Below are positions 3,114 to 61,675 of a stretch of DNA of 64,000 bases, one piece after another. A program made the translations under genes and the position numbers. The notes below the pieces were generated by a model that worked only from the letters and a program-made list of their open reading frames with translations, had not been told where the DNA came from and did not search any database. Source of the DNA: Elusimicrobiota bacterium (GTDB taxonomy: Bacteria; Elusimicrobiota; Elusimicrobia; Elusimicrobiales; UBA9959). The first letter of the stretch is position 1; each line of letters begins with the position of its first letter. The stretch is from contig DAIENX010000002.1 of NCBI GenBank assembly GCA_027340875.1, forward strand, positions 25,429 to 89,428, given 5' to 3'.

Positions 3114-3122
3114 GGCGAGCTC

Positions 3123-4499: not shown

Positions 4500-4556
4500 A
4501 GGTTCCTCCGATCCATAGTTGTCTGCCTGTGCCCGGCCGTGGCCGGGAAAAATAGT

Positions 4557-7094: not shown

Positions 7095-7108
7095 GGCGGT
7101 CCTCCGGG

Positions 7109-19759: not shown

Positions 19760-21259
19760 ATGCTCCGCTCCAATCCGCACCTGATAGAGATAAACGCCAG
19801 GCTGTGGCTGAAACAGCTCAGGGCCAAGTATTCCCAGCCTGAGCTGACGCTCTCGTCCATCCCTGACGACGAATGGCTGCAGCTTCGCCATCTTGGCATC
19901 GACATAGTCTGGCTGGTGGGCGTCTGGGAGCCCAGCCCGGAATCCGAGCGCATAGCCAGGCAGGACAAGGCCCTGCTGGAAGAGGTCAAGACCATCCCGC
20001 CGGGCTTCGGGCCGGAGGACCTCTGTTCGTCCCCTTACTCCATCCACTGGTACCGCCTGAACCAGGACCTGGGCTTCGAATGGGAGCTCAAGGCCCTGCG
20101 CGAGAAGCTGAATTCCATGGGGATGAAGCTGATGGTGGACCTGGTCTCCAACCACACCTCCAGGGACAATCCTTACATCCGGGAATGCCCGGACTGCTTC
20201 ATACACGGCACGGAGAAGGACTTCGCCGAGCACCCGGACTGGTTCTACGAGATGGAAGGGGGGGACGGCAGGAAGCTCTACATCGCCTACGGCCGTGACC
20301 CCAACTTCCCCGCCTGGACGGACAGCGCGCAGCTCAACTATTTCAATCCCGCCGCCAGGGAGCGGATGCTCTCGGTGCTGATGCGCATAGCGGACATGGC
20401 CGACGGCGTGCGCTGCGACATGGTGATGCTGACCCTGAACGAGATCCACGAGGCCACGTGGGGCTGGCTGCTGGGGCGCAACGGCTACCGCCGTCCGGAC
20501 GAAGAGTTCTGGGACGGGGCGATCCGCGCTGTCAGGGAGAAGCACCCCGAGTTCATCTTCCTGGCCGAGGTCTATTGGGGCTTGGAGTGGCGCGTGCAGC
20601 AGATGGGCTTCGACTATACCTACGACAAGGGCACCTACGACAGGCTCCGCTTCCAGGGGCCCCAGGAAGTGCGCGGACACCTGCGCGCCGAGAAGCTCTA
20701 CCAGAAGCGCTCGGCCCGTTTCATCGACAACCACGACGAGCAGCCCTCCCTTACGGCTTTCGGCCGTCAGAAGGCCATGTCGGCTGCGGTGATAATCTCC
20801 ACCATCAAGGGCCTGCGCTTCTATAACGACAACCAGCTGGACGGCGTTCCGATACGCCCGCCCCTGCAGCTGGCCGGGCTTTATGACAGGCCGTCGGACC
20901 AGGAGGTCCGGAAATTCTATTCCAAGCTGCTGAAGATAACCGATCACCCTGCTTTCCACGGAGGGGAGTGGTCGCTGCTGGAGGTCCGCAAGTGCGACAA
21001 GGAGAACAAGACCAACGCCAATATCCTCGCCTGGTCCTGGGCCCAGCGCCGCACGCTGAAGGTCGTAGTGGTCAACTACTCCGGAGAGCCGTCCTGCGGC
21101 GTGATCAACATCTCCCTCAAGAGCGATGGCGAGACGAAGGCCATCTTCGAGGAGCTGTCCGACAGGTTCTTCTCTTTCAAGGCGGGGGACCTGGCCGGCG
21201 GCCTGCGGCTGCAGGAGATGGCCCCCTATTCGGCCTACATCTTCGACGTGGAATTCTGA
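19760..21259 (+). CDS. alpha-amylase family (GH13) glycoside hydrolase
   Basis: 499 aa. GH13 conserved regions DLVSNHTS (I), GVRCDMV (II), FLAEVYW (III) and FIDNHD (IV). Confidence 0.8.
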   Translation: MLRSNPHLIEINARLWLKQLRAKYSQPELTLSSIPDDEWLQLRHLGIDIVWLVGVWEPSPESERIARQDKALLEEVKTIPPGFGPEDLCSSPYSIHWYRLNQDLGFEWELKALREKLNSMGMKLMVDLVSNHTSRDNPYIRECPDCFIHGTEKDFAEHPDWFYEMEGGDGRKLYIAYGRDPNFPAWTDSAQLNYFNPAARERMLSVLMRIADMADGVRCDMVMLTLNEIHEATWGWLLGRNGYRRPDEEFWDGAIRAVREKHPEFIFLAEVYWGLEWRVQQMGFDYTYDKGTYDRLRFQGPQEVRGHLRAEKLYQKRSARFIDNHDEQPSLTAFGRQKAMSAAVIISTIKGLRFYNDNQLDGVPIRPPLQLAGLYDRPSDQEVRKFYSKLLKITDHPAFHGGEWSLLEVRKCDKENKTNANILAWSWAQRRTLKVVVVNYSGEPSCGVINISLKSDGETKAIFEELSDRFFSFKAGDLAGGLRLQEMAPYSAYIFDVEF

Positions 21260-21324: not shown

Positions 21325-22053
21325 TTACGGCTCCCGGGCCAGAGTGAAAGCCGCTACGGATACCGCCCCGGCCCGCCGGAGCCCGGAAGCCAGCTCCCTA
21401 AGGGTGGCCAGCGTGGTGGCCACGTCGTCCACAAGCAGTATGGACCTGCCTTTGACCAGCTCCGGCCTGGCCACCGAGAAGGCCCCCTCCACGTTCGCCA
21501 GCCTTTCCCGCTTGGAAAGAGCGGTCTGGCTGCCCGTATCCCTGTTCCTCGCCGCCGCGCCCTCCAGATGGAAAAGGTTGGCGCGGGCGGGCAGCGCGGC
21601 GGCCAGCAGCCCGGCCTGGTTGAAGCCTCTCTCCCGTTCCCGCGACGGATGCAGCGGCACCGCCACCGCGAAGCCGTGGCCGGCCAGCTCCGGGAAGCGC
21701 GGCAGCGCCGCGGCCATTTCAGCGCCGAGCCAAGCCGCCAGGTCGCTCCTTCCGCGGTATTTCAGCGCGTGCACGAGCGAGCGCAGCTGCGGGTTGAAGA
21801 CGAAAGCGGAGCGGGCAGCGGACAACGGGCCGCCGCGGGCGCCGCGGCAGTCCCTGCAGGAGGCCCCGCCGTCGGGCAGCGGCAGGCCGCAGAAAGCGCA
21901 GTACGGAGCTCGCAGCGGCTCCAGCCCCCCGGCGCACGGCGCGCAGAGCGGCTCCCCGGCCAGGTAATGCAGGTCCTCTCCGCAATGGGCGCAGGTCCGC
22001 GGCAGCAGCGCGTTCAGCAGCCATTTGCCGGCCTTCGAGAGCGCCGTTCTCAT
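21325..22053 (-). CDS. comF: ComF-family protein (phosphoribosyltransferase domain)
   Basis: Start at MRTALSK (Met36 of ORF 21325..22158). N-terminal CxxC pairs (CAHCG, CAPC, CAFCG, CRDC) and the PRTase motif ILLVDDVATTLATL. Confidence 0.75.
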   Translation of the reverse strand: MRTALSKAGKWLLNALLPRTCAHCGEDLHYLAGEPLCAPCAGGLEPLRAPYCAFCGLPLPDGGASCRDCRGARGGPLSAARSAFVFNPQLRSLVHALKYRGRSDLAAWLGAEMAAALPRFPELAGHGFAVAVPLHPSRERERGFNQAGLLAAALPARANLFHLEGAAARNRDTGSQTALSKRERLANVEGAFSVARPELVKGRSILLVDDVATTLATLRELASGLRRAGAVSVAAFTLAREP

Positions 22054-22085: not shown

Positions 22086-25000
22086 TCAGAACTGGAACGT
22101 AAGCGTGCTGCCCGCCTGGTAGGAGAGGTATTCCTCCTGCTTCAGGTATTTGTGCCACAGCCGTTGCAGGCCGAGGTTGAAGGTGAGACGCAGGTTCTTG
22201 GCGGCCTCGTAGTCCGCGCTGGAGTTCAGCGAGAAAAGCCTGTTGTTCTCCGCTATGGTTATGGGCGAGGTCTTGATCGCGTAGCTCAGCGTCGTGGTCC
22301 AGACTATGCGGTTTGTGAAGATGATGGCCTGCTTCATGAACGGCAGCTTGAGCCCCTTGGGCAGCTGGAAGTCTGACTTTATGAGCACGCTGGGCGTCAC
22401 GGTCCGGGTGTTGGCCGTGATCACTCCGAGCGCTCCCTTCGTCTTGTCGGATACGTAGTCCACCTTGGGGGTGAAGCGGAACTTGCCGCGGTCGAACGTG
22501 CCCTGCAGCGTGGCGTCGTCGTGGCGCGACTGCTGCGTGAAGCGGTCCACGCGCAGGTCCTTCTTGTCGGAGAGGCGCAGGTTGTAGCTGAGGGCGGTGT
22601 CTACCTTGTTCAGCAGCTTGAAGCGCAGGTCCACGCCATAGGTGCCAGCCGTCTCTAGGGAGACGGTCTTGGCCTCGTTGGTGTTGCGCGAGTATTTCAG
22701 GTTGACCGTCGCGCCCTGCGCCCAGCGCTGGACCCGCATCAGCGTCTCGAGCTGGGACAGCGAGAGTATCATGTCGGGGAAGGTGCGGTTCACGCTCTTG
22801 GATATGGTGCCGGTGACCTCGGAGCGCTGTACCGAGTTGGTGAAGTTGTTGGTCAGCGAGAGCGTCTTCAGCGGTGCCGCCCCTCCTGTCAGCCCGTAAC
22901 CCTCGAAAGGCTGCCAGCGCTGCGTGGAGTTAACGGTATCGCGCAGCGTTACCGAGTTGCGCAGCGCGAACGGGCTGGCGGGCTTGAGCGAGTCGCGCAG
23001 CCAGAGCCTGGAGCGGGTATTGTAGTCCTTCTCCACGTTCAGCCACGAGTCGCCGTCCTGGATCTGGTAGTTGGAGGACAGCACCAGCGAGCGGAGCAGG
23101 CGGTTCCGCGGCATCAGGTCGTTCATGCTGAAAGTCAGGCCCACGCCGCCCTGCGCGGTGCGGTTCACGGTCTTGATCTCGCCGGTGGTGAAGACATGGG
23201 AGGACCGCGCCACCGTCACCGTGGTGATGTTGAGGTTGTTGCTCTCTATCGTGGTCACGGAATAGTTGATGGACGGGTTCAGCCAGCGGGCGAACAGAAG
23301 GTTGGAATTGAAGTCCACCGTCTGCTGCAGCGACTTGTTGTAGCGCTCGAGGCTCAGCGGGTCGGAGAGAGGGCTCCTCTCCTCCCTCGCTGTCTGCAGC
23401 GAGTAGCCGGGGTTGAACGAGGACCCCGTCCACGGTATGAACGTGAGCTTGGCGCCGTAGGCGTCGGTGCGCTCGCGGGTCTTGTATAGGCCCGACAGCA
23501 GGAGGAGCTTGTCGGCGTTGTAGCTGACGCGGTTCAGACCCAGCGAGTAGTTGAGGTTGAGCGTCCGAGGGAAGAGCGGGAAGCTGCCGGGCACGCTGTA
23601 GCCCAGCGTGGCCGCGTAGAGGTCCCTGTCGTCCTTGCGGCTGAGCAGGCTGTAGTCCACTACCCCTTTGGTGTAGTTCAGGCCCAGCTTCGGCAGCGCG
23701 GGCAGGCTCAACGTGCCCGCCGCCGTGCCGTCGAACTTCTTCACGCGGCCCTGCTGCAGCGAATTGACCAGGTTGTTGGAGCCGGTGACCAGCGTGTTGG
23801 GCGTCACGGTTATCTGCCTGGCCGCGGTGAAGTTCATCGGGAAGAAGGCCAGGCGGCTGATGTTCAGATAACCGGTCTGCTGCTCGTTATCCTGGTTGGA
23901 GATGGCGGTGACAGGCGTCTGGAAGCTGCGGTCCATGAAGCGGTGCTTGCCGCCGAAGCTGATCCAGCCGGGTATCTCGAAGGCGCCCTCCACCTTGCGC
24001 GCGTTGCCGACCCGGGTCAGAGGCTTGGCGACGTGAAGCTCGTTGAAGTAGACGGTGCCGGTGTGCGCGGAGGAATCGGTGGCCTCCACGCCGGCTATGA
24101 ACTGCGGTATCTGCTGCAGGCTAGGGGCGCCGCTGGAGGAGACCGTCACTCCGAAGGTGCCGGAGGTCCAGACGTCCGGGATCTCGTCGCCGGTGATGTC
24201 CTCCTGGTCCAGTGTTATCAGCTTCCAGCCGGTGAAGTTCAGCGGCACGGAGGCCTTGAAATAATTGTTGCCGTCGCCGGCCTTCAGGTAGAAGGAGGCG
24301 CCCGCGTTCGCGCCGCTCTCGCTCTTGACCAGGAAGCGCAGCTCCTTGTGCTGGGAGACGTCTATCGCCCGGGTGAACTTGCGGTAGACGTAGACGGTGG
24401 ACGTGGAGTAGATCCCGGTGTAATCTATTGCCAGCGTCTGCTCCGTGATGGAGCTGGCATTGCTCTTCTTCTTCTGCTCGGAAACGGAGCCGTAGAGGTC
24501 GTTGAAGACCCGCGTCGCGTCCCCGCCGGCCTCGTAGATCGGGGTGTAGCCTGGGTTGTCCTGGTTGTTGACTCCGATGGCCTGCATCGAGCCCGGGCTG
24601 GTGGAGGACTGCACCGACCAGGTGTTGCCCACCGCGGAGATGCGGGCGAACTTGACGACGCCAGAGTTCGCCCCGCCGGCGGATTTCTTCAGCGTGATGC
24701 GGACCTGCTTGATGGCGCTCCACTTGTAGGTGTCGGTGGAGGTTATGGCCAGCGGCAGGTAAAGGGTGTGCCAGCCGGTGAAGTCCACGGTGTTCTTGCG
24801 GTTGCCTGGCGCCGGCGTGCTGTCGTTGTTGTCTATGAACGTGGTGCCGTTGACGTAGCCGAGGCTGCCGCCGGTGAAATCCTGCTGGTCCAGGCGGCCG
24901 TTCTTGTTCAGGTCCTCCGAGTCCAGGCGGCCGTTCCCGGAGCCGTAGCGCTTGCTGTTCTTGCCGGTGGGAGCGTAGAGCCAGCCGATGTCTTCCGCGC

Positions 25001-27440
25001 TGGAGACCTGGCTGTCACAGTTCAGGTCCTCGCTCTTCGGCGCTCCCGAAAGGACTAGGCCTGAGGTGCAGACGAAGTTCTGGCCGCCGGTGTTGTCGGA
25101 GTCTTCGTCGATCTGGCCCAGGTGGATGTTGAACTGCGGCCCGGGCGTGCTGGGGGAGTTCTGGCCGTACATCACCAGCTCGAGCACGTTCTTCTGCGAG
25201 AAGTCCAGGCCGGTGGGTGACAGCGGGTAGACTATCGAGACCTCGTTCGAGTTCGTGAAGTCGTAGCTGATATCCAGCACCTGCTGCGTGCCGTCCGAGG
25301 TGGCCGCCGGGTTGATGTCCCTGGCCTTCACGCTCTCGTTGTACCAGTCCAGCGACAGCGGGTCGGCCGGGCCGGAGGAGCCCGGGGGGTTTGAGGCGAT
25401 GAACCAGTAGTTCTTGTCCATCGACGGGGAGTCTTCCTGCTTGACGCCCTCCATGTTGTCTATCAGAGCGTATTTGTTCAGGTTGGGGTTCAGCCTGCTC
25501 TGCGCGGCCTCGGCCCCCAGCGTGGTCCTCAGCCCGAGCAGGTTAAGGCCCTTGAGCTGGGCGTCGCCTTCGTAGACCAGCATGCTGTTGGTCAGGTCGG
25601 TGATGTTGGGCACCGTGTTGGACTTGATGCCGCCCTGATAGAGCAGCGTGGAGCCGGCCGAGAAATGGCTGCCGAAATCGTAAGAGACTCGCCCGCCCAC
25701 CAGCGACTGGTTGCCCACGCCGCCGAACGGCGAGACCTCGTAGGTGATCTCTATCTTCGAGTCCTGGCCTATGCGCTCCGGGTAGTAGAACGTGATGAAG
25801 CCGGAGTCGTAGTCGATGAAATATTCCTCGTTGCGGCCCAGCTTCTTGCCGTCCACGCGCACCACCTCCGACTGCAGCACGATATTGGGCTCCAGGATGA
25901 AGGTCTTGAAGCGGTACGAGTATTCCACCCGGATGACGCGCTTGGAGACCGGGGCGGCGGAATAGATCTGCGGGTCTTCCTGCGAGGCGTTGTCCTGGTC
26001 GGCGAAAGGCTTGAGCAGATGGAAGATGCCCTGTTCGAAGTCCACCTCGATAGTGTCCGGGTAGGTCTGCGGCGGGTTCAGCGTGGAGCCCACCGGCGTC
26101 CGGTTCAGGTCCTGCACCTTCAGTATGAAGTTGCCGCTGCCGTTGTCGCGCACGAGATTGCTCTGGCCTATGGAGTAGTAGGTCTTGAGCTCCCGGCGGT
26201 GGGATACCTGCTGCGCGGCCACGGCCGTATCCGAGGAGATCGCGATGTCGTTCTGCGTCTTGATTATCGCCGGTATCGCCGGCGCCGCCGCCGCGTCCAG
26301 GGTCGACGTGGAGCTGTTCTGCGACAGCATGGTGCCGCCCGCGTTCTGGAAGTCTATTATCACCACGTCCTGCGGGTTCAGCGTACGGCCGAAGGTCACG
26401 AGGCCCTTGGCGTAGTCCATCACGTAGTCTATGCCGGGGCTCATCAGCTGGAACCGGCCGGTATAGCTGGAGGTCTGGACGGACATGTCCTTGCCGGTCA
26501 GGGCGAAGACGGTCACGTTATCCACCTGTGCCTGCGTCTGCTGGTCGATATAGACCCGCTCCGAACCCGACTTGATCGGCAGACGGGCCGTGTTGCCGAA
26601 GGTCACGTCGTAGTATTTGCGGCGCAGATAGTTGGTGTCGAGGACGTCGACCCCCTGGAACTGGGTGTTCCCCGTGAACTGCCGGGTCTTCGTCTGGCCT
26701 TTCGTGCGGGAGCCCACCACCGTCATCTTCAGGCGGTTGGTCCTCAGGTCGGCCCTGATGCCGAACAGCTGCTTGTTGTAGGAGACGAACTCCGTGGCCG
26801 GCAGCGAGAGGTCTATGTCGCCGAACGACACGTTCTGCACCACCTCGTTCGGGTCGCCCTGGTAGACCACCGAGATGTCCTGCTTGTCCTGCTTGGTGTC
26901 GTCGTAGTCGACGTTGACGGTGATCTTCTGGCCGACCTTGCCCTGCATGCGCACCTGCATCTGCTGTGTGATCTCGAACAGGCTGAGGCTGCGCGGGCGC
27001 GTGACGGTGGTCTGCTCGTTGATGAACTTCTTGCCGCTGTAACTGAGGGCTATCACCTTGCGGCCGGTGACCGACAGCGAAGTGCCGGATTCGCGGAACT
27101 CCACCTGCGGCTCCGGGGGGGCGGGGGCCTCCGTGGACACCGCCACGGCCGCCACCGGCGGCAGTTCCTCGCTCATGTAGCGGCCGGTCTCCACCGCTTC
27201 CCTGGCCTCGTTCCAGGCCTCGTTACTGTAGGTGATGGGCACGTCCTCGGCCATGCTGTCGATGTCCGCGGCTCCGGTGGAGGTGGACACCTCTCCGGAG
27301 TCCAGTATCGCGGACGGGTCCTGCCTGTCCAGCAGCAGGAAGCGGCCGCCGCCGGGGGAGAGCACGGCGAAATCAGCCGCCCGCGCGGGCGCGCAGCTCA
27401 GGGCCAGGGCAAGTGACAGCAGTACAGGTTTGAAGTTCAT
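22086..27440 (-). CDS. giant (1784 aa) outer-membrane beta-barrel protein, possibly SprA-like
   Basis: Signal peptide MNFKPVLLSLALALSCAPARA-ADF. The C-terminus ...AGSTLTFQF ends in an aromatic residue, typical of OMPs. Long Ser/Thr/Asn/Tyr-rich alternating segments and an acidic motif GRLDSEDLNKNGRLDQQDF. The SprA assignment is from memory only. Confidence 0.6.
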   Translation of the reverse strand: MNFKPVLLSLALALSCAPARAADFAVLSPGGGRFLLLDRQDPSAILDSGEVSTSTGAADIDSMAEDVPITYSNEAWNEAREAVETGRYMSEELPPVAAVAVSTEAPAPPEPQVEFRESGTSLSVTGRKVIALSYSGKKFINEQTTVTRPRSLSLFEITQQMQVRMQGKVGQKITVNVDYDDTKQDKQDISVVYQGDPNEVVQNVSFGDIDLSLPATEFVSYNKQLFGIRADLRTNRLKMTVVGSRTKGQTKTRQFTGNTQFQGVDVLDTNYLRRKYYDVTFGNTARLPIKSGSERVYIDQQTQAQVDNVTVFALTGKDMSVQTSSYTGRFQLMSPGIDYVMDYAKGLVTFGRTLNPQDVVIIDFQNAGGTMLSQNSSTSTLDAAAAPAIPAIIKTQNDIAISSDTAVAAQQVSHRRELKTYYSIGQSNLVRDNGSGNFILKVQDLNRTPVGSTLNPPQTYPDTIEVDFEQGIFHLLKPFADQDNASQEDPQIYSAAPVSKRVIRVEYSYRFKTFILEPNIVLQSEVVRVDGKKLGRNEEYFIDYDSGFITFYYPERIGQDSKIEITYEVSPFGGVGNQSLVGGRVSYDFGSHFSAGSTLLYQGGIKSNTVPNITDLTNSMLVYEGDAQLKGLNLLGLRTTLGAEAAQSRLNPNLNKYALIDNMEGVKQEDSPSMDKNYWFIASNPPGSSGPADPLSLDWYNESVKARDINPAATSDGTQQVLDISYDFTNSNEVSIVYPLSPTGLDFSQKNVLELVMYGQNSPSTPGPQFNIHLGQIDEDSDNTGGQNFVCTSGLVLSGAPKSEDLNCDSQVSSAEDIGWLYAPTGKNSKRYGSGNGRLDSEDLNKNGRLDQQDFTGGSLGYVNGTTFIDNNDSTPAPGNRKNTVDFTGWHTLYLPLAITSTDTYKWSAIKQVRITLKKSAGGANSGVVKFARISAVGNTWSVQSSTSPGSMQAIGVNNQDNPGYTPIYEAGGDATRVFNDLYGSVSEQKKKSNASSITEQTLAIDYTGIYSTSTVYVYRKFTRAIDVSQHKELRFLVKSESGANAGASFYLKAGDGNNYFKASVPLNFTGWKLITLDQEDITGDEIPDVWTSGTFGVTVSSSGAPSLQQIPQFIAGVEATDSSAHTGTVYFNELHVAKPLTRVGNARKVEGAFEIPGWISFGGKHRFMDRSFQTPVTAISNQDNEQQTGYLNISRLAFFPMNFTAARQITVTPNTLVTGSNNLVNSLQQGRVKKFDGTAAGTLSLPALPKLGLNYTKGVVDYSLLSRKDDRDLYAATLGYSVPGSFPLFPRTLNLNYSLGLNRVSYNADKLLLLSGLYKTRERTDAYGAKLTFIPWTGSSFNPGYSLQTAREERSPLSDPLSLERYNKSLQQTVDFNSNLLFARWLNPSINYSVTTIESNNLNITTVTVARSSHVFTTGEIKTVNRTAQGGVGLTFSMNDLMPRNRLLRSLVLSSNYQIQDGDSWLNVEKDYNTRSRLWLRDSLKPASPFALRNSVTLRDTVNSTQRWQPFEGYGLTGGAAPLKTLSLTNNFTNSVQRSEVTGTISKSVNRTFPDMILSLSQLETLMRVQRWAQGATVNLKYSRNTNEAKTVSLETAGTYGVDLRFKLLNKVDTALSYNLRLSDKKDLRVDRFTQQSRHDDATLQGTFDRGKFRFTPKVDYVSDKTKGALGVITANTRTVTPSVLIKSDFQLPKGLKLPFMKQAIIFTNRIVWTTTLSYAIKTSPITIAENNRLFSLNSSADYEAAKNLRLTFNLGLQRLWHKYLKQEEYLSYQAGSTLTFQF

Positions 27441-29818: not shown

Positions 29819-31783
29819 CTACTTCACCATCTTGCGGGCCGTCTCGGCTATCCTGCGCGCGGTAAGGCCGAGCGCCTCATAGGCCTTTTCGGCCGGCGCC
29901 GACTTGCCGAACGTTTCCACTCCTACTGTCTCCACGTCGCCGCCGATCAGGTCGCGCCAGCCGGCGGACCTGCCGGCCTCCACGGCCACCTTCGGGAGCT
30001 CCGGTATGAACACGGAGTCGCGGTATGCCTTGTCCTGCCCGAGGAACAGCTCGAAGGACGGTACGGATATGATGCGCGCCCCGATGCCTTCCTTCTCCAG
30101 GAGGGCGGCGTCCTCGAACAGCAGCTGAACTTCCGAGCCGGAGCCGACCAGCTCCACTGACGGGACTATCGACGGGCCGCGCAGCAGGTAAGCGCCGCGC
30201 TTGACCCCGGCCGCTATCTTTTCGCGGTACTGGCCCATCAGCGGCAGCTTCTGGCGGGACAGGGCCAGGCAGGCCGGGCGGCCGGAACGGACCGCCGCCT
30301 CCCAGGCATAGAGCGTCTCCCAGGCGTCGGCCGGGCGCAGCACCGTCAGGTCCGGTATCAGCCTCAGGCTCATCAGGTGCTCTACGGGCTGGTGGGTAGG
30401 GCCGTCCTCGCCCACGCCTATGCTGTCGTGCGTGAAGACGAACACCGCGGGCGCCTTCATCAGCGCGGCCAGGCGCAGGGCCGGCCTCATATAGTCGGAG
30501 AATACCAGGAAGGTAGCGCCGAAGGGTATCAGCCCTCCGTGCAGGGCCAGGCCGTTGAGGACCGAGCCCATCGCGTGCTCGCGGATGCCGAAATGCAGCG
30601 TGCGCTCCGGCTCCTTGAGGAAGTCCGTCTTCGTCGAGGGGCCCAGGTCGGCCGAGCCGCCTGTGAGGCCCGGGAGCTTTTCGGCCATGAGGTTTATAAC
30701 CTTGCCCGAGGCCTCGCGGGTCGCGAGCGGCTTGTCGAAGAACTCGGGGCCTGGCTCGAACAGCCCGTCGGGTATCTCCCGGCCGAGCATGGCCTTGGCC
30801 AGCTCCGCCTTCTCCGGGAGGGCCTCTGAATAGTTCTTCCAGAGCTTCAGCCAGCGCTTGCGGTCGCGCTCACCGGCGGCGGCCAGCTCGGCGAAGCGGG
30901 CCTTGGCCTCCTCCGGAACGCAGAACTGCTGGTCGGGATCGCAGCCGAGAGTCCTCTTCGTGGCCTGTATCTCGTCGGGCTTGAGCGGCTCGCCGTGCAC
31001 CGAATTCCTGTCCTGCTTGGGACTGCCGAAGCCGATATGGGTCTTCGCGATTATCAGGGAGGGCTTCTCCTCTTCGCGCTTGGCCTTCTTGATCGCGTTG
31101 TCCACCTCGGCGAGGTCGTTGCCGTCCTCCACCTCTATCACCTGCCAGTCCTGCGCCTGGAAGCGCTTCTTAACGTCCTCGGTGAAGGTCAGGGCCGTGG
31201 AGCCCTCTATCGTGATGCCGTTGGAGTCGTAGAGGCAGATCAGCTTGCCCAGCTTCCAGTGGCCGGCCAGCGAAGCGGCCTCGTACGAGACTCCCTCCAT
31301 CAGGTCCCCGTCGCCGCAGAGCACGTAGGTATGGTGGTTGACCAGCTGGAACTCGGGGGTGTTAAGCTTCCCGGCCAGCAGTTTCTCGGCCAGGGCCATG
31401 CCGACGGCCGAGGCGAAGCCCTGGCCCAGCGGACCGGTGGTCATCTCCACGCCCTTGGTGTGGCCGTATTCCGGATGGCCCGGGGTCAGGCTGTCGAGCT
31501 GGCGGAAATCCTTGAGGTCGTCCATCGTCAGGCCGAAGCCGTACATGAACAGCATCGAGTAGAGCAGCGAGGAGCCGTGCCCGGCGGAGAGCACGAAGCG
31601 GTCCCGGTCGAACCAGCCGGGGTCTGAGGGGGAGATCCTCAGGTGCCCCGCCCAGATGGCGTACGCCAGCGGGGCGGCGCCCAGTGGCAGTCCGGGGTGG
31701 CCGGAGTTGGCCTTTCCCACCATGTCTATGGAAAGGGTCCGCAGGGTCTCCACGCAGAGCTTGTCGGTGTTGTCGAATTTCAT
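29819..31783 (-). CDS. tkt: transketolase
   Basis: 654 aa. Contains the GKANSGHPGLPLG and THDSIGVGEDGPTHQP motifs. Confidence 0.92.
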   Translation of the reverse strand: MKFDNTDKLCVETLRTLSIDMVGKANSGHPGLPLGAAPLAYAIWAGHLRISPSDPGWFDRDRFVLSAGHGSSLLYSMLFMYGFGLTMDDLKDFRQLDSLTPGHPEYGHTKGVEMTTGPLGQGFASAVGMALAEKLLAGKLNTPEFQLVNHHTYVLCGDGDLMEGVSYEAASLAGHWKLGKLICLYDSNGITIEGSTALTFTEDVKKRFQAQDWQVIEVEDGNDLAEVDNAIKKAKREEEKPSLIIAKTHIGFGSPKQDRNSVHGEPLKPDEIQATKRTLGCDPDQQFCVPEEAKARFAELAAAGERDRKRWLKLWKNYSEALPEKAELAKAMLGREIPDGLFEPGPEFFDKPLATREASGKVINLMAEKLPGLTGGSADLGPSTKTDFLKEPERTLHFGIREHAMGSVLNGLALHGGLIPFGATFLVFSDYMRPALRLAALMKAPAVFVFTHDSIGVGEDGPTHQPVEHLMSLRLIPDLTVLRPADAWETLYAWEAAVRSGRPACLALSRQKLPLMGQYREKIAAGVKRGAYLLRGPSIVPSVELVGSGSEVQLLFEDAALLEKEGIGARIISVPSFELFLGQDKAYRDSVFIPELPKVAVEAGRSAGWRDLIGGDVETVGVETFGKSAPAEKAYEALGLTARRIAETARKMVK

Positions 31784-32639: not shown

Positions 32640-34706
32640 ATGGCTCCGGAATTCATTCACCTCCATAACCACTCCGAGTACTCGCTGCTCGACGGGATGC
32701 TGCGCATCTCCGACGGTCACGGCGGCCCCTCTGAATTCCTGAAGGGTCTCGCCGCCCAGCCCGGCAACGCCTTCGCTCTGACCGACCACGGCAACATGTA
32801 CGGCGCGATGGAGTTCTATTTCATAGCCCAGAGCCTGGGGCTCAAGCCCATCGTCGGCTGCGAATGCTACATCGCCCGCGGCTCGCGCAAGGACAAGGAG
32901 AAGGGGACCACCCGCCGCGACAACGGCCACATGACCGTGCTCGCGAAGAACGAGACAGGCTACAAGAATCTGATGAAGATGGTCTCCGCCTCGTTCATCG
33001 AAGGCTTCTACCACGATCCCCGCATAGACGAGGAGCTGCTCGAGAAGCACAAGGAAGGCCTCGTCTGCCTCTCCGGCTGCCTGAAGTCGCACGTAGCGCG
33101 CAATTGCGCCGAGGGCAAGATCGACGAGGCGGTCAAGCTCGCCTCCCGCTATAACGACATCCTCGGCAAGGGCAACTTCTACCTGGAACTGATGGACCAC
33201 AACATCCCCGAGGAGCAGGCGGCCATGGCCGGTCTCCTCGAGACGGCCAAACGCACCGGGATACCTCTCGTCGCCACCAACGACTGTCATTACCAGAAGA
33301 AAGAGGACTGGGAGGCGCACGACGCCCATATCTGCATCTCCACCGGCGCGCTGATGGATGACCCGGACCGCATGCGCATGACCACGCATGAACTCTATTA
33401 CAAGTCCCCGGCGGAGATGATAAAGCTCTTCTCGCATACCCCGGAGGCCGTGAAGAACACCCTCGTCATAGCCGACATGTGCAACCTCAAGGTGGACAAC
33501 AGCAAGCTGCACCTGCCCGCCTTCGACATTCCCGCCGAGTACAAGGCCAAATACGGCGACGAGGGGGACTTCCACTATCTGAAGGACCTTTGCGAAGAAG
33601 GCCTGCGCAAGAAGGTGCCTAACGCCGGGGAGGAGTACCGGAAGCGTCTCGAGTTCGAGCTGGATACCATCAAGAAGATGGGCTTCTCCAGCTACTTCCT
33701 GATAGTGATGGACTTCATCAGGCACGGCCGCAGCGTAGGCGTTCCCGTGGGCCCGGGCCGCGGCTCCGGCGCCGGCGCGCTGGTCGCCTACACGCTGGAC
33801 ATCACGCGGGTAGATCCGCTGCCCAACTCCCTGCTGTTCGAGCGTTTCCTCAACCCGGGCCGCAAGAGCATGCCAGACCTGGACATCGACTTTTCCGACG
33901 AGGGCCGCGAGCGGGTGGTGCAGTACGTGCGCGAGAAGTACGGCTCCTCGCGCGTGGCGAACATTATCACCTACGGCACCATCAAGGCCAAGAGCGCCAT
34001 TCGGGACGTCGGCCGCGTGATGGGCATACCGCTCGCCGACGTCAACGCGATAGCCAAACTGATCCCCGGCGACCCGAAGGCCACCCTCTTCAAGTCCATC
34101 AACGACAGCAGCGAGTTGAAGGGCTTCATGCGGGACCCGAAGCTCAAGAAGATGTTCGACATCGCGATGAAGGTGGAGGGCCTGCGCCGGCACACCGGAG
34201 TGCACGCCGCGGGCGTCGTCATTTCCAAGGACGACGTGACCGACTACGTCCCGCTCGCCAACCGCAACACCAAGGAGATCATCACCACGCAGTACGACGG
34301 CAACATGCTGGGCTCGCTCGGCATGCTGAAGGTGGACTTCCTCGGCCTGCGCACGCTTTCGGTCATTGAGACCGCCTCCGAGTTCATACGCACGCTGCCC
34401 GGCAAGTCGGATTTTGACATATATTCCATCCCGATGGACGACAAGGCCACGTTCGACCTGCTCTGCGAGGGCCGGACCACCGGCGTGTTCCAGCTGGAAA
34501 GCGAGGGCATGAAGAAGCTGGTCAAGGGTCTAAAACCCACGGTCTTCAGCGACATCGCGGCCCTCGTGGCGCTATACCGCCCCGGCCCGATAGAGAGCGG
34601 CATGCTCGAGATGTTCGTCGAGCGCAAGCACGGCCGCAAGAGGATCGTCTACGACCACCCGCTGCTCGAGCCCATCCTGAAGGACACCTACGGTACGATG
34701 GTGTAA
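32640..34706 (+). CDS. dnaE: DNA polymerase III alpha subunit, N-terminal 688-aa fragment (ends at an in-frame TAA)
   Basis: PHP domain (HLHNHSEYSLLDG) and polymerase core (GPGRGSGAGALVAY, DIDF). The ORF stops at ..LKDTYGTMV*, where the conserved YQEQVM motif begins. Confidence 0.9.
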   Translation: MAPEFIHLHNHSEYSLLDGMLRISDGHGGPSEFLKGLAAQPGNAFALTDHGNMYGAMEFYFIAQSLGLKPIVGCECYIARGSRKDKEKGTTRRDNGHMTVLAKNETGYKNLMKMVSASFIEGFYHDPRIDEELLEKHKEGLVCLSGCLKSHVARNCAEGKIDEAVKLASRYNDILGKGNFYLELMDHNIPEEQAAMAGLLETAKRTGIPLVATNDCHYQKKEDWEAHDAHICISTGALMDDPDRMRMTTHELYYKSPAEMIKLFSHTPEAVKNTLVIADMCNLKVDNSKLHLPAFDIPAEYKAKYGDEGDFHYLKDLCEEGLRKKVPNAGEEYRKRLEFELDTIKKMGFSSYFLIVMDFIRHGRSVGVPVGPGRGSGAGALVAYTLDITRVDPLPNSLLFERFLNPGRKSMPDLDIDFSDEGRERVVQYVREKYGSSRVANIITYGTIKAKSAIRDVGRVMGIPLADVNAIAKLIPGDPKATLFKSINDSSELKGFMRDPKLKKMFDIAMKVEGLRRHTGVHAAGVVISKDDVTDYVPLANRNTKEIITTQYDGNMLGSLGMLKVDFLGLRTLSVIETASEFIRTLPGKSDFDIYSIPMDDKATFDLLCEGRTTGVFQLESEGMKKLVKGLKPTVFSDIAALVALYRPGPIESGMLEMFVERKHGRKRIVYDHPLLEPILKDTYGTMV

Positions 34707-34715
34707 CAGGAACAG

Positions 34716-36152
34716 GTGATGGAGATAGCCAAGAGCATGGCCAAGTTCACTCCGAGCGAGGCCGACGACTTCCGCAAGGCGATGGGCAAGAAGAAACTGG
34801 ACGTGATGGAGAAGCTGCGCGAGAAGTTCATCAGGCAGTCCAAGGAGCACCACGACGTCCCGAACAAGCTCTCCGCCAAGATATTCGACGACATGGCCAA
34901 GTTCGCGGGCTACGGCTTCAATAAGTCCCATTCCGTAGCCTATGCCCTGGTGGCCTACCAGACCGCGTGGCTGAAGGCCAACTACCCCACCGAGTTCATG
35001 GCCGCGCTGCTGACCAGCGAGATCGGCCACAGCCCTATCGGCTCCGAGGACAAGGAGAACAAGCTGGTGACCTATATCGGAGAGGCCCAGGACATGGAGA
35101 TAGGGATCCTGGGGCCGAGCGTGAACCGCTCCCAAAAGCGCTTTTCCATAGAGCCCCATAACGGCAAGCCCGCCATCCGCTTCGCGCTGACCGCGGTGAA
35201 GAACGTAGGTGAGGGCGTCGTGGAGGCTATGGTGGCCGAGCGCGCCAAGAACGGCCCGTTCCGCTCTTTCGAGGAGTTCACGCTGCGGGCGGATTCCAAG
35301 CAGCTCAACAAGCGCGTGCTGGAATCCCTGGCCAAGGGCGGCGCCTTCGACTGCTTCTACCCGGCCGAGAAGGCCGAGATCTCGCGGACGAAGGCGATGG
35401 AGGCCTACGAGTCCTTCTGCGGCGGCAAGGGCTCTTACGACTGCAACCAGACCATGCTGTTCGCGGAAGAGAAGAAGGAAGCGCCCGTGATGAACGAACA
35501 CACGCTGCTGAAGAACGAGCGCGAGGTGCTGGGCTTCTATTTCTCCGGCCACCCGCTGAACAGCTACCGCCGCCATCTGGCCATGGTCTCGAACGCCCCG
35601 GTGGAGAAGGTGCTGGCCGGCGCTTTCGCCGAAGGGGCGGTCGTGCGCGTGGCCGGCATCGTGGCCCAGTTCAAGAGCATGCAGACCAAGAAGACCGGCG
35701 AGCCGATGGCCAAGTTCGAGGTGGAGGACCTGACCGGGAACCTCGGCGTCTGCCTGTTCCCCAAGAAGTACAAGGTCTACGGTCCGCAGCTCGGACCCAA
35801 CAAGGTCGTAGTGGTCGCCGGCAAGGTGCAGAAATCTGATTTCGGTGAGCAGAATTACGAGCTGATAGCAGAGGAGGCCTACAGCCTCTTCGACGCGATG
35901 AACAAGTGGGCCAGGGGGCTGGTGGTCAAGCTGCCGGAAGGCATACTCTTCGACGAAAAGCAGCTGCACGAGCTCAAGACGCTGCTCGGGCGCAACCACG
36001 GCATGTGCCCGGTCTATTTCCAGGTGGACGCCAAGGGGCGCGGCACCTACCTGATAGAGACGACGGAGCGGGTGGAGCTCGGCGACGAGCTTCTGAGGGA
36101 GATAGAGAGGCTGCTCGGAGACAAGACATGGAAAGTGGAAAGCGGATCCTGA
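34716..36152 (+). CDS. dnaE: DNA polymerase III alpha subunit, C-terminal 478-aa fragment (same frame as 32640..34706)
   Basis: 34716-32640 is a multiple of 3. The fragment continues as (QEQV)MEIAKSMAKFTPSEADDFRKAMGKKK, GYGFNKSHSVAYA and an OB-fold region. Confidence 0.9.
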   Translation: MMEIAKSMAKFTPSEADDFRKAMGKKKLDVMEKLREKFIRQSKEHHDVPNKLSAKIFDDMAKFAGYGFNKSHSVAYALVAYQTAWLKANYPTEFMAALLTSEIGHSPIGSEDKENKLVTYIGEAQDMEIGILGPSVNRSQKRFSIEPHNGKPAIRFALTAVKNVGEGVVEAMVAERAKNGPFRSFEEFTLRADSKQLNKRVLESLAKGGAFDCFYPAEKAEISRTKAMEAYESFCGGKGSYDCNQTMLFAEEKKEAPVMNEHTLLKNEREVLGFYFSGHPLNSYRRHLAMVSNAPVEKVLAGAFAEGAVVRVAGIVAQFKSMQTKKTGEPMAKFEVEDLTGNLGVCLFPKKYKVYGPQLGPNKVVVVAGKVQKSDFGEQNYELIAEEAYSLFDAMNKWARGLVVKLPEGILFDEKQLHELKTLLGRNHGMCPVYFQVDAKGRGTYLIETTERVELGDELLREIERLLGDKTWKVESGS

Positions 36153-40188: not shown

Positions 40189-41199
40189 ATGCGCCCGAAG
40201 AGGATCCTTCTCGCACTTATACTGGCCTTCGCGCCTGGAGCCGCGCTCCACGCGCAGGAGCCGGAGGCCCGCGCCCCGCCGGCGGGATTGGTCCCCTGGG
40301 CCGCGTCCTGGGGCGACGAGACCGATGACGACGTACTGCGGGAGGCGGTCTGGACCCGCGTGGCCTCTTCCAAGCCTCCGGCGCGGCCTTCGGTGGGGCT
40401 CGCCTTGTCCGGCGGCGGCGCCAGGGGTTTCGCGCACGCCGGTGTGCTTGAGGCCCTCGAGTACGCCGGCTTCCCTGTCGACGAAGTTTCCGGCACCTCG
40501 ATGGGTTCGGTAATAGGCTCCCTTTACGCGGCCGGCACGCCCGTGCAGGAGATCTGGAAGTTCGGCCGCGAAGCGGAGCGGCTCAAGATCTCTCGGGACT
40601 TCCGGAACATCAGGGTTCTCGGACTGCTGCTGGCCGACAAGCTGCTCACGCCCACCCATATAAACGAGTTCATAGAAAGTCATCTGGGCGGCAAGACCTT
40701 TGCCGATCTCCGCATCCCCTTCGCCTGTTCCGCGATGGACCTCCGCACCGGCGAGAAGATCGTCTTCACCGAGGGTCCGCTGGCCATAGCCGTGCGCGCC
40801 AGCGTGGACCTGCCCGGCATCTTCGCGCCGGTGCAGTACCGACACCGCTATCTGGTAGACGGCGGAGTGGTCGATTTCATCCCCGTGGAGGCCGCCAAGC
40901 AGTTGGGCGCAGAATGGGTGCTGGCCAGCGTTACCAGCAGCTCGCAGAGCCGCATGCCGGAGAACGTCCTTATGTCGCTGCTTCAGGTCATAGATATCAG
41001 GGGCTCCCTGCTGGCCGGCGCCGAGGAGAAAGAGGCCGGCTTCGTCTTCAAACCCGAGCTGGGCGGCGTGGGCGTGGCGGATTTCGACAAATGCGAGGAC
41101 GCCGGAGAGGTCGGCCTGCTCGAGGCCTCGCGCCGCATGAACGAGGCCAAAGAGGCGCTGCTGATCTATTCCGCGCCGAGGGTGGTGGAGAAGTTGTGA
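40189..41199 (+). CDS. secreted patatin-like phospholipase
   Basis: 336 aa. Signal peptide, oxyanion motif LSGGGARGFAHAG, nucleophile elbow GTSMGS and the catalytic Asp in VDGGVVD. Confidence 0.8.
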   Translation: MRPKRILLALILAFAPGAALHAQEPEARAPPAGLVPWAASWGDETDDDVLREAVWTRVASSKPPARPSVGLALSGGGARGFAHAGVLEALEYAGFPVDEVSGTSMGSVIGSLYAAGTPVQEIWKFGREAERLKISRDFRNIRVLGLLLADKLLTPTHINEFIESHLGGKTFADLRIPFACSAMDLRTGEKIVFTEGPLAIAVRASVDLPGIFAPVQYRHRYLVDGGVVDFIPVEAAKQLGAEWVLASVTSSSQSRMPENVLMSLLQVIDIRGSLLAGAEEKEAGFVFKPELGGVGVADFDKCEDAGEVGLLEASRRMNEAKEALLIYSAPRVVEKL

Positions 41200-46368: not shown

Positions 46369-47673
46369 CTAGCGGCCCCGCAATATCTCGCGGGCGGCCT
46401 CGAGCCCTTCCTTCACGCTTTCTTCCATGAAGGAATACTTCCAGGCGCCGTAGCGGCCGATGGAACGGGCTTTTCTCGACTTGAGCCAGTCGAAGATGAC
46501 AGGCAGGGCCCGGGCCCGTTCCCGGTTATAGACGACGTAGGCGCAGGGGATCTTCAGCCAGAGCCTCTCGGCTATCTGCGAGGAGCTCCTGATGAACCCG
46601 CAGGACTTCAGCCCCTTTATGACCGCGGCTTCCGCGGAAGCGAGGCCCAGCGCCGAGCCTGGGGTGGCCAGTTCTATGTAGAACGATTCATATCCGCGCG
46701 GCGCCATCGCCGCGGAGAAGTTGGTGGCTATGCCGGCGCGGTAAAAGGGGAACTCGGCGCCCGGGAAGTAGCCCCAGTGCATCGGAGAGGCCGCGCCTTT
46801 TACTCCGAGGTTGAGCACGTAAACGGTATTGTGCCGCAGCGAGGCCGCGGCGCGGCGCACGGCCGCCGGGGCGTCCTCCGCGCGCGCGATAAGCTCGTTC
46901 AGTGGAGCGGTGTTCACCAGACGGCGGAAATGCACCGGCCCGAAATGGCGCACGTTGGCCACGCCCTTACGCAGGTTCAGGCTCTCCACTTCGAGTCCCA
47001 GTCGCAGGCCGCTCAGGCCGCGGGCCAGGGCGTTGGACAGCGAGCCGATGCCGCCTCTCCTGGGGTAATAGAAGACGGTATTGTAGCCGAGGCCTTCGGC
47101 CTTCCTGCCGTATGCCCCCTGTACTACCTCCTCGGGCCGGGGCATCGGCACGAACGGCGCGCACCATTCCGTGGTGAGACGCTCGAGAGGGTACTGCCAG
47201 AGCTTGGCGTTGTACGGCAGCATGAAGTGCCTGGAGATGCCTTCGCCGAAGACGCGCCTGGTCCAGCGGCTGAAGACCTCGGAGCCGTCGCCCGGGGCTT
47301 GGCCGCCGGAGGAGTAGGCCTTCAGGAAGCCGCTCACGCATTCGGACTTGACCCCGGCCGGCATTCCCGAGAGGTTGGCCTGGAACGGGTACGGGGTCCA
47401 GCTTCTGTGCGCGTAGATGCGGGCGTCGCGCTTCAGTTCCCGCGCGTTGCCCTTCAGCGCGCCGAGTATCAGCCTGCGCGTCTCCGGCCAGCGCAGGTGC
47501 AGCAGGTGCCCGGAATAGTCGAAGTGGTAGCCGCCTTTCTTTATCGTGGCCGCCAGGCCGCCGGGGCGGTTCTCCTTCTCGGCGATCAGATAGTCCTTGC
47601 GGCCTTCCAGCGCGCCGCCGGCTGCCAGGCCGGCGAGCCCGCCGCCGATCACGAGCACGTCCGTCTTAAGCAT
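46369..47673 (-). CDS. FAD-dependent enzyme resembling eukaryote-type UDP-galactopyranose mutase
   Basis: 434 aa with VLVIGGGLAGLAAG. Blocks TPYPFQANLS, FMLPYNAKLWQYP, FYYPRRGGIG, FPFYRAGIATNFS and GRYGAWKY parallel my recollection of Aspergillus UGM (VPYPFQNNIS, FMRPYNFKVWAVP, FRFPARGGTG, CPFYRATIFSNYS, GRFGSWRY). Confidence 0.5.
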   Translation of the reverse strand: MLKTDVLVIGGGLAGLAAGGALEGRKDYLIAEKENRPGGLAATIKKGGYHFDYSGHLLHLRWPETRRLILGALKGNARELKRDARIYAHRSWTPYPFQANLSGMPAGVKSECVSGFLKAYSSGGQAPGDGSEVFSRWTRRVFGEGISRHFMLPYNAKLWQYPLERLTTEWCAPFVPMPRPEEVVQGAYGRKAEGLGYNTVFYYPRRGGIGSLSNALARGLSGLRLGLEVESLNLRKGVANVRHFGPVHFRRLVNTAPLNELIARAEDAPAAVRRAAASLRHNTVYVLNLGVKGAASPMHWGYFPGAEFPFYRAGIATNFSAAMAPRGYESFYIELATPGSALGLASAEAAVIKGLKSCGFIRSSSQIAERLWLKIPCAYVVYNRERARALPVIFDWLKSRKARSIGRYGAWKYSFMEESVKEGLEAAREILRGR

Positions 47674-50963: not shown

Positions 50964-51032
50964 GTCGTTCCCCTATAGAAGTCTATATGATAGCCTCTTT
51001 TGCCCCGGCTAGGCAAATTGCCGCAGGATTAA

Positions 51033-51041
51033 TGATAGAAT
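51033..51041 (+). promoter_or_regulatory. extended -10-like element (TGaTAGAAT) 12 nt upstream of ATG 51054
   Basis: TGATAGAAT lies in an AT-rich divergent region. Confidence 0.3.
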
Positions 51042-51053
51042 AGAAGCGGAACT

Positions 51054-53715: not shown

Positions 53716-53716
53716 T

Positions 53717-58078: not shown

Positions 58079-58090
58079 TCTTTCCCCGCG

Positions 58091-60444
<2,354 letters not shown>

Positions 60445-61578: not shown

Positions 61579-61657
61579 GATTCCCTCCTGTGACCGCAAT
61601 GATATCATTATAATAAAATAAAACCTTTCGCCCAAGGGAGGGAGGCGCCGCCCGATT

Positions 61658-61666
61658 TGTTATAAT
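61658..61666 (+). promoter_or_regulatory. extended -10 promoter element (TGtTATAAT) 9 nt upstream of ATG 61676
   Basis: Exact TGnTATAAT with no SD before the start codon. The AT-rich island also contains the palindrome ATGATATCAT (61599-61608) and a minus-strand TATAAT (61607-61612). Confidence 0.4.
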
Positions 61667-61675
61667 CTATCCTTA

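What the first reader, a model, noticed from the sequence alone, without database searches (positions are those of the whole stretch)
34704..34706. In-frame TAA interrupts dnaE at the conserved Tyr of the YQEQVM motif
ORFs 32640..34706 and 34716..36152 are in the same frame. Together they give a collinear 1170-residue DNA polymerase III alpha subunit. The only break reads ..DTYGTMV-TAA-QEQVMEIAK.., where E. coli (as I recall) has ..YGIILYQEQVMQIAQ... The stop therefore replaces a Tyr codon (TAC or TAT) by a single third-position change. dnaE is essential, and there is no other decay on either side. The options are a base-calling or assembly error, a minority or nonsense allele captured in the assembly, a second functional copy elsewhere, or stop-codon readthrough or suppression. 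TAA functions as a normal stop in this window (hyhS, tlyA, the lipoprotein gene), so a global recoding is unlikely.
Basis: partly seen in the sequence, partly recalled or inferred. Interest (0 to 1): 0.65.

Follow-up and report, generated by a model that had tools for sequence, protein, structure and literature searches.

The report
Assembly-private stop codon in dnaE
The stop codon inside the essential DNA polymerase gene is a single C-to-A change found only in this deposited assembly; other assemblies of the same strain read an ordinary tyrosine codon, so it is most likely a sequencing or assembly error, not biology.

Summary
TAA at 34704-34706 interrupts an otherwise collinear 1170-codon dnaE (32640..36152, +) at the near-invariant Tyr of YQEQVM, which corresponds to E. 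coli Tyr686.

The organism is an uncultured Elusimicrobiota bacterium. The same strain has been assembled from other samples. Those contigs are 99.98% identical over 15-23 kb with no indels. They read TAC (Tyr) here and encode a 1170-aa DnaE identical to the window's in every other residue.

Position 34706 is one of ten isolated substitutions private to this assembly:
- all ten sit at consensus G:C pairs
- nine of ten are transversions
- all ten change the protein, and none is synonymous

Clustered strain differences in the same window are 17/27 synonymous (Fisher p=0.0006). An unselected spectrum like this predicts at least one nonsense codon in ten hits about a third of the time.

TAA terminates 9 of 54 genes, and dnaE is the only gene with an internal stop. 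I found no tRNA, no Rfam element and no stable RNA structure after the stop.

Verdict: a consensus error, or at most a non-representative allele, in this record. Low interest. Read mapping on the source assembly would settle it.

The parts
32640..36152 (+). dnaE (DNA polymerase III alpha subunit), 1170 codons plus terminator, interrupted at codon 689
   Evidence: Pfam PHP, DNA_pol3_alpha, DNA_pol3_finger, HHH_6 and OB fold across the two fragments; 100% identical to the intact 1170-aa P0001 when codon 689 is read as Tyr
34704..34706 (+). in-frame TAA at the position of the near-invariant Tyr of YQEQVM (E. coli Tyr686)
   Evidence: Y in 117 and F in 5 of 122 full-length homologues; TAT 50, TAC 29, TTT 1 in 80 species loci; no stop in any
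34706..34706 (+). the single differing base: A in the window, C in other assemblies of the same strain (TAC>TAA)
   Evidence: L081 (JAKAMO010000006.1) and L082 (ERZ27237563) both have C; outgroups L001 and L097 also read TAC
34708..34721 (+). AGGA (34708-34711), then GTG 34716 and ATG 34719: a Shine-Dalgarno-like restart context that is simply the coding sequence of QEQVM; a gene caller used ATG 34719 for the 477-aa product
   Evidence: sequence; P0123 starts MEIAK; function as a restart site is inferred only and considered unlikely
13083..13083 (+). window-private G>C, Ala288Pro in gene 12222..13202
   Evidence: 5 of 5 other assemblies have G
20990..20990 (+). window-private C>A, Gln411Lys in alpha-amylase-family gene 19760..21259
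   Evidence: 4 of 4 other assemblies have C
21591..21591 (-). window-private C>G (+ strand), Ala155Pro in gene 21325..22053
   Evidence: 4 of 4 other assemblies
30111..30111 (-). window-private G>T (+ strand), Ala558Asp in transketolase 29819..31783; the aligned residue is Ala in T. thermophilus transketolase 2E6K
   Evidence: 2 of 2 other assemblies
40270..40270 (+). window-private G>C, Gly28Arg in patatin-family gene 40189..41199 (N-terminal region)
   Evidence: 2 of 2 other assemblies
46707..46707 (-). window-private G>T (+ strand), Leu323Met in NAD_binding_8/amino-oxidase gene 46369..47673; outgroup L097 has Leu
   Evidence: 3 of 3 other assemblies
48095..48095 (-). window-private C>G (+ strand), Lys221Asn in methyltransferase gene 47666..48757
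   Evidence: 3 of 3 other assemblies
51279..51279 (+). window-private G>A, Val76Met in GFO_IDH_MocA oxidoreductase gene 51054..52130 (the only transition of the ten)
   Evidence: 4 of 4 other assemblies
59353..59353 (-). window-private C>A (+ strand), Gly51Cys in methyltransferase/glycosyltransferase gene 58091..59503
   Evidence: 3 of 3 other assemblies

Best explanation
The TAA is a consensus error in this deposited metagenome-derived assembly. A single C>A miscall turned the organism's real TAC (Tyr689) codon into a stop. The miscall could come from sequencing error, template damage, low coverage or assembler choice. The organism's dnaE is an ordinary intact single-polypeptide Pol III alpha, and no recoding, suppression or gene decay is involved.

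Shown:
- the base is private to this record
- the same strain elsewhere has TAC
- the record carries nine more private substitutions with an unselected, G:C-targeted, transversion-dominated profile

Inferred: that the cause is technical rather than a true allele of the sampled cells. The reads are not available here.
For: (1) Contigs of the same strain from other samples are 99.983% identical over 23,513 nt and 99.980% over 15,272 nt, with no gaps, and read TAC at this codon. Four contigs encode the exact intact 1170-aa protein P0001, which equals the window's protein in every other residue.

(2) Closer and farther relatives all have Tyr. These are P0121, P0122 and P0124, L001 with TAC, L097 with TAC, 117 Y and 5 F of 122 homologues, and 79 Tyr codons plus 1 Phe codon in 80 species loci.

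(3) The whole window was compared with 16 loci from 9 other assemblies. There are 10 isolated window-private substitutions and no indels. All 10 are at consensus G:C (p=0.012 at 64.4% GC). The spectrum is 5 GC>TA, 4 GC>CG and 1 GC>AT. All 10 change an amino acid.

(4) Clustered strain differences in the same window are 17/27 synonymous, against 0/10 for the isolated private ones (Fisher p=0.0006). The isolated ones therefore have not passed through selection.

(5) For this spectrum and codon usage, unselected hits are 4% nonsense. The chance of at least one nonsense in ten is 0.33, so one stop is an expected by-product.

(6) Two other private changes are derived against outgroups: transketolase A558D (Ala in 2E6K) and oxidoreductase L323M (Leu in L097).

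(7) dnaE is essential (established knowledge). The stop bisects the finger domain at Pfam profile position about 117 of 166.

(8) Uncurated MAGs are known to carry local assembly errors that propagate incorrect protein sequences into public databases (10.1101/808410).
Against: No reads, coverage or base qualities are available, so a technical origin is not shown directly. De Bruijn assemblers normally need a k-mer seen more than once, so a simple random read error needs low coverage or duplicated damaged templates to reach the consensus. Zero synonymous changes of ten is somewhat more extreme than the unselected expectation of 29% synonymous (p=0.03). I have no explanation for that excess. Independence of the other assemblies from the window's sample is unknown, because the accession of the window's record is hidden.
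Confidence: 0.66

Rival explanations
1. The TAA is a true allele of DNA molecules in the sample: a recent nonsense mutation in a dead-end, dying or minority sub-population, or in extracellular or damaged DNA. The assembler happened to put it into the consensus. It is real chemistry but not a functional state of the organism.
For: The stop is in the deposited record. Its ten private changes form a coherent G:C-targeted spectrum. That spectrum could be a real mutational process, such as oxidative guanine damage or a repair-deficient lineage, rather than instrument noise. At very short divergence purifying selection has not yet acted, so nearly all-nonsynonymous changes are possible.
Against: A nonsense codon in the only visible dnaE, inside the finger domain, should be lethal, so it cannot be the majority state of a growing population. 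Every other assembly of the strain has TAC. GC>CG changes are not what a mutY/mutM-type mutator produces (established knowledge).
Confidence: 0.24
2. The stop is real and tolerated. Full-length DnaE would be made by near-cognate tRNA-Tyr readthrough or by an ochre-suppressor tRNA-Tyr encoded elsewhere. Alternatively, termination at TAA is followed by re-initiation at ATG 34719, downstream of AGGA 34708-34711, giving a two-piece polymerase.
For: Reading UAA with tRNA-Tyr would restore the wild-type residue (inference). An SD-like AGGA lies 7 nt before ATG 34719, and a gene caller accepts that start (P0123). Only a few replicase molecules per cell are needed in E. coli (own knowledge).
Against: The stop is not conserved in any relative or in the same strain. 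There is no tRNA in the window or related loci and no Rfam element. The RNA 3' of the stop folds less stably than shuffles (z=+1.24). TAA is a normal terminator for 9 of 54 genes. The restart context is just the codons of the conserved QEQVM and exists in the intact alleles too. A two-piece enzyme would lack YQEQV and split one domain.
Confidence: 0.04
3. This copy is a freshly inactivated pseudogene, and a second dnaE or a polC elsewhere in the genome carries replication.
For: It cannot be excluded from 64 kb of sequence. Some bacteria carry two dnaE paralogues (own knowledge).
Against: There is no other decay: the protein is 100% identical to the intact allele outside codon 689. The same locus is intact in the same strain elsewhere. 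This is the conserved syntenic copy in relatives. No second polymerase gene appears in the window's gene set.
Confidence: 0.04
4. TAA is reassigned, or ambiguously decoded, as a sense codon in this organism.
For: None beyond the single codon.
Against: TAA ends 9 of 54 genes. No other gene has an in-frame TAA, TAG or TGA. The identical strain encodes the residue with TAC.
Confidence: 0.01

Closest known systems
DnaE-type DNA polymerase III alpha subunit (C-family replicase; E. coli DnaE, PDB 2HNH/5FKU; T. aquaticus 2HPI/3E0D)
   Same: Same domain order: PHP, palm (DNA_pol3_alpha), fingers, HHH_6, OB fold. Strong alignment around the site (E=6e-68 to 2HNH over 200 residues). The YQEQVM motif is conserved.
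   Different: This record has TAA in place of the Tyr that corresponds to E. coli Tyr686. The intact allele of the same strain does not.
Local or consensus errors in uncurated metagenome-assembled genomes (Chen et al., 'Accurate and Complete Genomes from Metagenomes', 10.1101/808410)
   Same: A deposit-specific sequence state that breaks a protein-coding gene and has entered public protein collections as two fragments.
   Different: That paper mainly describes unsupported local misassemblies and gaps. Here the defects are isolated single-base substitutions without indels. Read support could not be examined.
Oxidative guanine-damage artefacts in short-read libraries (G>T/C>A from 8-oxoG; own knowledge, e.g. 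Costello et al. 2013, Nucleic Acids Res)
   Same: All ten private changes are at G:C pairs and five are GC>TA, including the one that makes the stop.
   Different: Four are GC>CG and one is GC>AT. Such artefacts are normally at low allele fraction and should not reach a consensus unless coverage is very low. This is a lead from memory, not tested here.
Ochre suppression by mutant tRNA-Tyr (E. coli supC/supM class; own knowledge)
   Same: It would insert exactly the wild-type residue at this UAA.
   Different: No suppressor tRNA was seen, the stop is not conserved, and TAA is a regular terminator here.
Naturally split DnaE joined by a split intein (cyanobacteria; own knowledge) and intein-containing DnaE (e.g. 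P0094)
   Same: DnaE encoded in two pieces, or interrupted at a highly conserved motif.
   Different: There is no intein sequence here, and the two ORFs are contiguous with only the stop between them. The Elusimicrobiota intein in P0094 sits near residue 757, not 689.

Membership tests
DnaE-type Pol III alpha subunit | N-terminal PHP domain plus DNA_pol3_alpha (palm/NTPase) domain | tested here: met
   PF02811 E=1e-46 and PF07733 E=1.5e-98 in the 688-aa fragment
DnaE-type Pol III alpha subunit | Finger domain, HHH_6 and C-terminal OB fold, collinear with solved DnaE structures | tested here: met
   PF17657 is split 1-116 / 122-165 across the two fragments; PF14579 and PF01336 are in the C fragment; alignment to 2HNH, 5FKU and 2HPI
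DnaE-type Pol III alpha subunit | Uninterrupted reading frame giving one ~1160-1200-aa polypeptide | tested here: not met
   Not met in this record (stop at codon 689); met in the same strain's other assemblies (P0001)
Programmed stop-codon readthrough / recoding site | The stop codon is conserved at the site in orthologues | tested here: not met
   0 of 122 homologues and 0 of 80 species loci have a stop; the same strain has TAC
Programmed stop-codon readthrough / recoding site | Stimulatory RNA element 3' of the stop, or a known recoding RNA family | tested here: not met
   MFE -20.6 kcal/mol against a shuffle mean of -24.7, z=+1.24; no Rfam hit
Suppressor-tRNA-mediated decoding of UAA | A tRNA with anticodon UUA in the genome | not testable with these tools
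   No tRNA gene in the window or in the related loci scanned; the rest of the genome is not available
Stop-codon reassignment (alternative genetic code) | The codon occurs in frame in many genes and is not used as a terminator | tested here: not met
   TAA terminates 9 of 54 genes; dnaE is the only gene with any internal stop
Pseudogene | Further decay (extra stops, frameshifts, relaxed substitutions) and/or loss of the gene in close relatives | tested here: not met
   100% amino-acid identity to the intact allele outside codon 689; no indels in 64 kb
Pseudogene | A functional replacement copy elsewhere | not testable with these tools
   Only 64 kb of the genome is available; none is in the window
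Sequencing/assembly consensus error | The state is private to one assembly while independent assemblies of the same strain agree on another base | tested here: met
   A in the window; C in JAKAMO010000006.1 and ERZ27237563; four contigs encode the intact protein
Sequencing/assembly consensus error | Accompanied by other private changes with an unselected, non-biological spectrum | tested here: met
   10 of 10 at G:C, 9 of 10 transversions, 0 of 10 synonymous against 17 of 27 for clustered strain variation
Sequencing/assembly consensus error | Reads do not support the consensus base, or support it only weakly | not testable with these tools
   No reads or coverage are available
Split / intein-containing DnaE | Intein (Hint/LAGLIDADG) sequence at the break | tested here: not met
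   The two ORFs are contiguous with only TAA between them; no intein Pfam hit

The most novel reading that the evidence does not exclude
The TAA allele is genuine and carried by living cells. They would survive either because near-cognate or suppressor tRNA-Tyr reads UAA often enough to supply the few replicase molecules a cell needs, or because termination and re-initiation at ATG 34719 gives a functional two-piece DnaE that lacks YQEQV.
Probability: 0.03. Interest if true: 0.6.

Novelty: not a real feature. Interest (0 to 1): 0.07.

Why it matters
It matters mainly as a data-quality point. A public Elusimicrobiota record carries a broken essential gene and at least nine more protein-altering private substitutions in 64 kb. 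These have already entered protein collections as a 688-aa and a 477-aa 'DnaE'. Anyone using this record for pseudogene counts, genetic-code inference, dN/dS or completeness estimates would be misled. The finding offers no new biology unless read data unexpectedly show that the stop is fixed.

Tried and rejected
- Exact-product look-ups of the two dnaE fragments found nothing. The fragments later appeared as cluster members P0125 and P0123.
- I scanned JGI metagenome contigs for the 32-nt site with N at 34706 to count alleles. There were no hits, so this strain is not in that collection.
- Suppressor tRNA: none in the window or in five related loci. The whole genome is not available.
- Recoding RNA: no Rfam family and no stable structure after the stop.
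- Global recoding is rejected from stop usage.
- Intein or split-gene idea: rejected. There is no insert, and the intein found in a related DnaE (P0094) is at about residue 757.
- The contig of the nearest species representative (L001) ends 5 nt after the same codon. I checked whether this marks something biological. It reads TAC-CAG-GA up to the contig end. I take it as a coincidental break in a conserved stretch of a fragmented co-assembly, without proof.
- Literature search for stop-codon recoding in Elusimicrobia found nothing relevant.
- I looked for an error-triggering sequence motif around the ten private sites by eye and saw no convincing common context.

Full report
**Observation**

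The window reads ..GGT ACG ATG GTG TAA CAG GAA CAG GTG ATG GAG.., with TAA at 34704-34706. ORFs 32640..34706 and 34716..36152 share a frame. A straight translation of 32640-36155 gives a collinear DnaE of 1170 positions with one internal stop at codon 689..DTYGTMV*QEQVMEIAK...

Pfam places PHP, DNA_pol3_alpha and finger-domain profile positions 1-116 in the N-terminal fragment. Finger positions 122-165, HHH_6 and the OB fold are in the C-terminal fragment. The stop therefore cuts through the middle of one domain.

Alignment to E. coli Pol III alpha (2HNH, 5FKU; E=6e-68) gives ..TYGIILYQ(687)EQVMQIAQ...

That position is Tyr in 117 and Phe in 5 of 122 full-length homologues. In 80 loci from GTDB species of many phyla it is TAT in 50, TAC in 29 and TTT in 1. 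None has a stop.

**Whose genome**

The nearest relatives are uncultured Elusimicrobiota. The closest GTDB species representative is 87% identical in protein. Public proteins are named 'MAG: DNA polymerase III subunit alpha [Elusimicrobia bacterium]'. The window is 64.4% G+C, with 88% G+C at third codon positions.

**The decisive comparison**

The protein search returned P0001, a 1170-aa DnaE that is 100% identical to the window's joined protein when codon 689 is read as Tyr. Four contigs encode exactly that protein.

Two of them were fetched:
- L081 (JAKAMO010000006.1 of GCA_021812825.1) is 99.983% identical to the window over 23,513 nt.
- L082 (ENA ERZ27237563) is 99.980% identical over 15,272 nt.

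Neither has a gap. Both have C where the window has A at 34706, so they read TAC.

More distant members of the same 90% cluster (P0121, P0122, P0124) also read ..GTMVYQEQVM... So do two 87%-identical outgroups, L001 and L097, both with TAC.

The same cluster holds a 688-aa protein ending ..YGTMV and a 477-aa protein starting MEIAK. Both come from one NCBI contig of 90,985 nt. That contig is evidently the window's source, so the stop is in the public deposit.

**The stop is not alone**

I fetched further loci of the same strain with four more look-ups. I then compared all 16 loci, from 9 other assemblies, with the window.
- Every window position is covered by at least one other assembly, and 55,884 positions by two or more.
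- There are no indels.
- Ten isolated substitutions are private to the window, and every covering assembly (2 to 5 of them) agrees on the other base. They lie at 13083, 20990, 21591, 30111, 34706, 40270, 46707, 48095, 51279 and 59353.
- All ten are at a consensus G or C (p=0.012 at 64.4% G+C).
- Five are GC>TA, four are GC>CG and one is GC>AT.
- All ten change the encoded protein: nine missense and the dnaE nonsense.

The clustered differences at 908-946, 60994-61069 and 62056-62448 look like true strain polymorphism or mixed-strain contig ends. They are 17/27 synonymous and 12/27 transitions. The synonymous contrast, 0/10 against 17/27, gives Fisher p=0.0006.

Where an outgroup could be read, the window's private state is the derived one:
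- Transketolase A558D: Ala in T. thermophilus 2E6K.
- Oxidoreductase L323M: Leu in L097.
- DnaE Y689*: Tyr in all relatives.

With the window's codon usage and this spectrum, unselected hits would be 29% synonymous, 67% missense and 4% nonsense. The chance that ten such hits include at least one stop is 0.33. A stop in some gene is therefore an unsurprising by-product of whatever process made these ten changes. That it fell in dnaE is chance.

**Alternatives tested**

- Genetic-code change. Of 54 genes mapped from the gene calls of the related loci, 36 end in TGA, 9 in TAG and 9 in TAA. dnaE is the only one with an internal stop.
- Programmed readthrough. The stop is conserved nowhere. Rfam finds nothing in the window. 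The 100 nt from the stop onward fold less stably than shuffled controls (z=+1.24).
- Suppressor tRNA. There are no tRNA genes in the window or in five related loci. The rest of the genome cannot be examined.
- Pseudogene with a second copy. There is no other decay, and the same syntenic gene is intact in the same strain. The rest of the genome is unavailable.
- Split or restart product. AGGA at 34708-34711 precedes ATG 34719 by 7 nt, and a gene caller uses that start. These bases are simply the codons for the conserved QEQVM and are present in intact alleles too. A two-piece enzyme would lack YQEQV and would split the finger domain.
- Intein. None is present. A related DnaE with an intein (P0094) carries it near residue 757.

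**Mechanism and confidence**

The best reading is a technical consensus error in this record (0.66). The spectrum hints at guanine damage (G>T and G>C). That is a lead from general knowledge, not something tested here.

The main rival (0.24) is that the A is a true state of some DNA molecules in the sample, a dead-end or minority allele that the assembler promoted. Either way the organism's functional dnaE reads TAC.

Tolerated-stop scenarios (about 0.04), a pseudogene with a second copy (about 0.04) and recoding (about 0.01) are not supported.

Two points remain open. No reads are available. Also, zero synonymous changes of ten is somewhat more extreme than the unselected expectation (p=0.03), which I cannot explain.

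Uncurated MAGs are known to carry local errors that put wrong protein sequences into public databases (10.1101/808410).

**Verdict**

Classification: not a real biological feature. Interest is low. The decisive test is read mapping on the source contig at 34706 and the nine other private sites.

Noticed in passing
window 13083, 20990, 21591, 30111, 40270, 46707, 48095, 51279, 59353: Nine further isolated substitutions are private to this assembly. All are at G:C, eight are transversions, and all are missense. This suggests the record has an elevated consensus error rate of about 1.8 per 10 kb.
   Followed up: yes
L087/L091 (GCA_027407095.1, DAHZHK01), at window positions 16295, 18949, 21780, 51668: Another public MAG of the same strain has four isolated private substitutions of its own. 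All four are non-synonymous and three are transversions. Error-like singletons are therefore not unique to the window's record.
   Followed up: partly
window 908-946, 60994-61069, 62056-62448: These are short tracts with 7-11 clustered differences between assemblies, mostly synonymous. They lie in a ParA/CbiA-family hydrogenase-maturation gene and in a DegT aminotransferase and a glycosyltransferase of the polysaccharide cluster. They look like true strain micro-diversity, short recombination tracts, or mixed-strain contig ends.
   Followed up: partly
L001:3225-3238 (CAYQJX010000076.1): The contig of the closest GTDB species representative ends 5 nt after the same Tyr codon (..GTG TAC CAG GA). 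It is probably a graph break in a highly conserved stretch of a fragmented co-assembly, but the coincidence is unexplained.
   Followed up: partly
window 22086..27440 (-): A 1784-aa ORF is conserved in all assemblies of the strain and has no significant Pfam domain. The only hit is a sub-threshold CBM_11 match (E=0.0015). It is a large protein of unknown function between a phosphoribosyltransferase-like gene and lptF/lptG.
   Followed up: partly
window 822..8994 (-): This is a [NiFe]-hydrogenase cluster: large and small subunits, an FAD/NAD and Fe-S subunit, and an Fer4 subunit. It also holds HycI protease, HypA, a ParA/CbiA-like protein, and two radical-SAM proteins with BATS domains, one of them with a HupF/HypC hit. 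Radical-SAM/BATS maturases next to a NiFe hydrogenase are an unusual pairing (Pfam lists).
   Followed up: no
P0094 (1634 aa): A related Elusimicrobiota DnaE carries an intein (PF14890 and PF14528), inserted at about residue 757 in window DnaE numbering, near the GYGFNKSHS motif.
   Followed up: partly
window 46369..63258: A long polysaccharide or glycan-modification cluster holds several PMT_2 glycosyltransferases, methyltransferases, DegT aminotransferases, epimerases and an asparagine-synthase homologue. Most of the strain-level variation in the window lies here.
   Followed up: no
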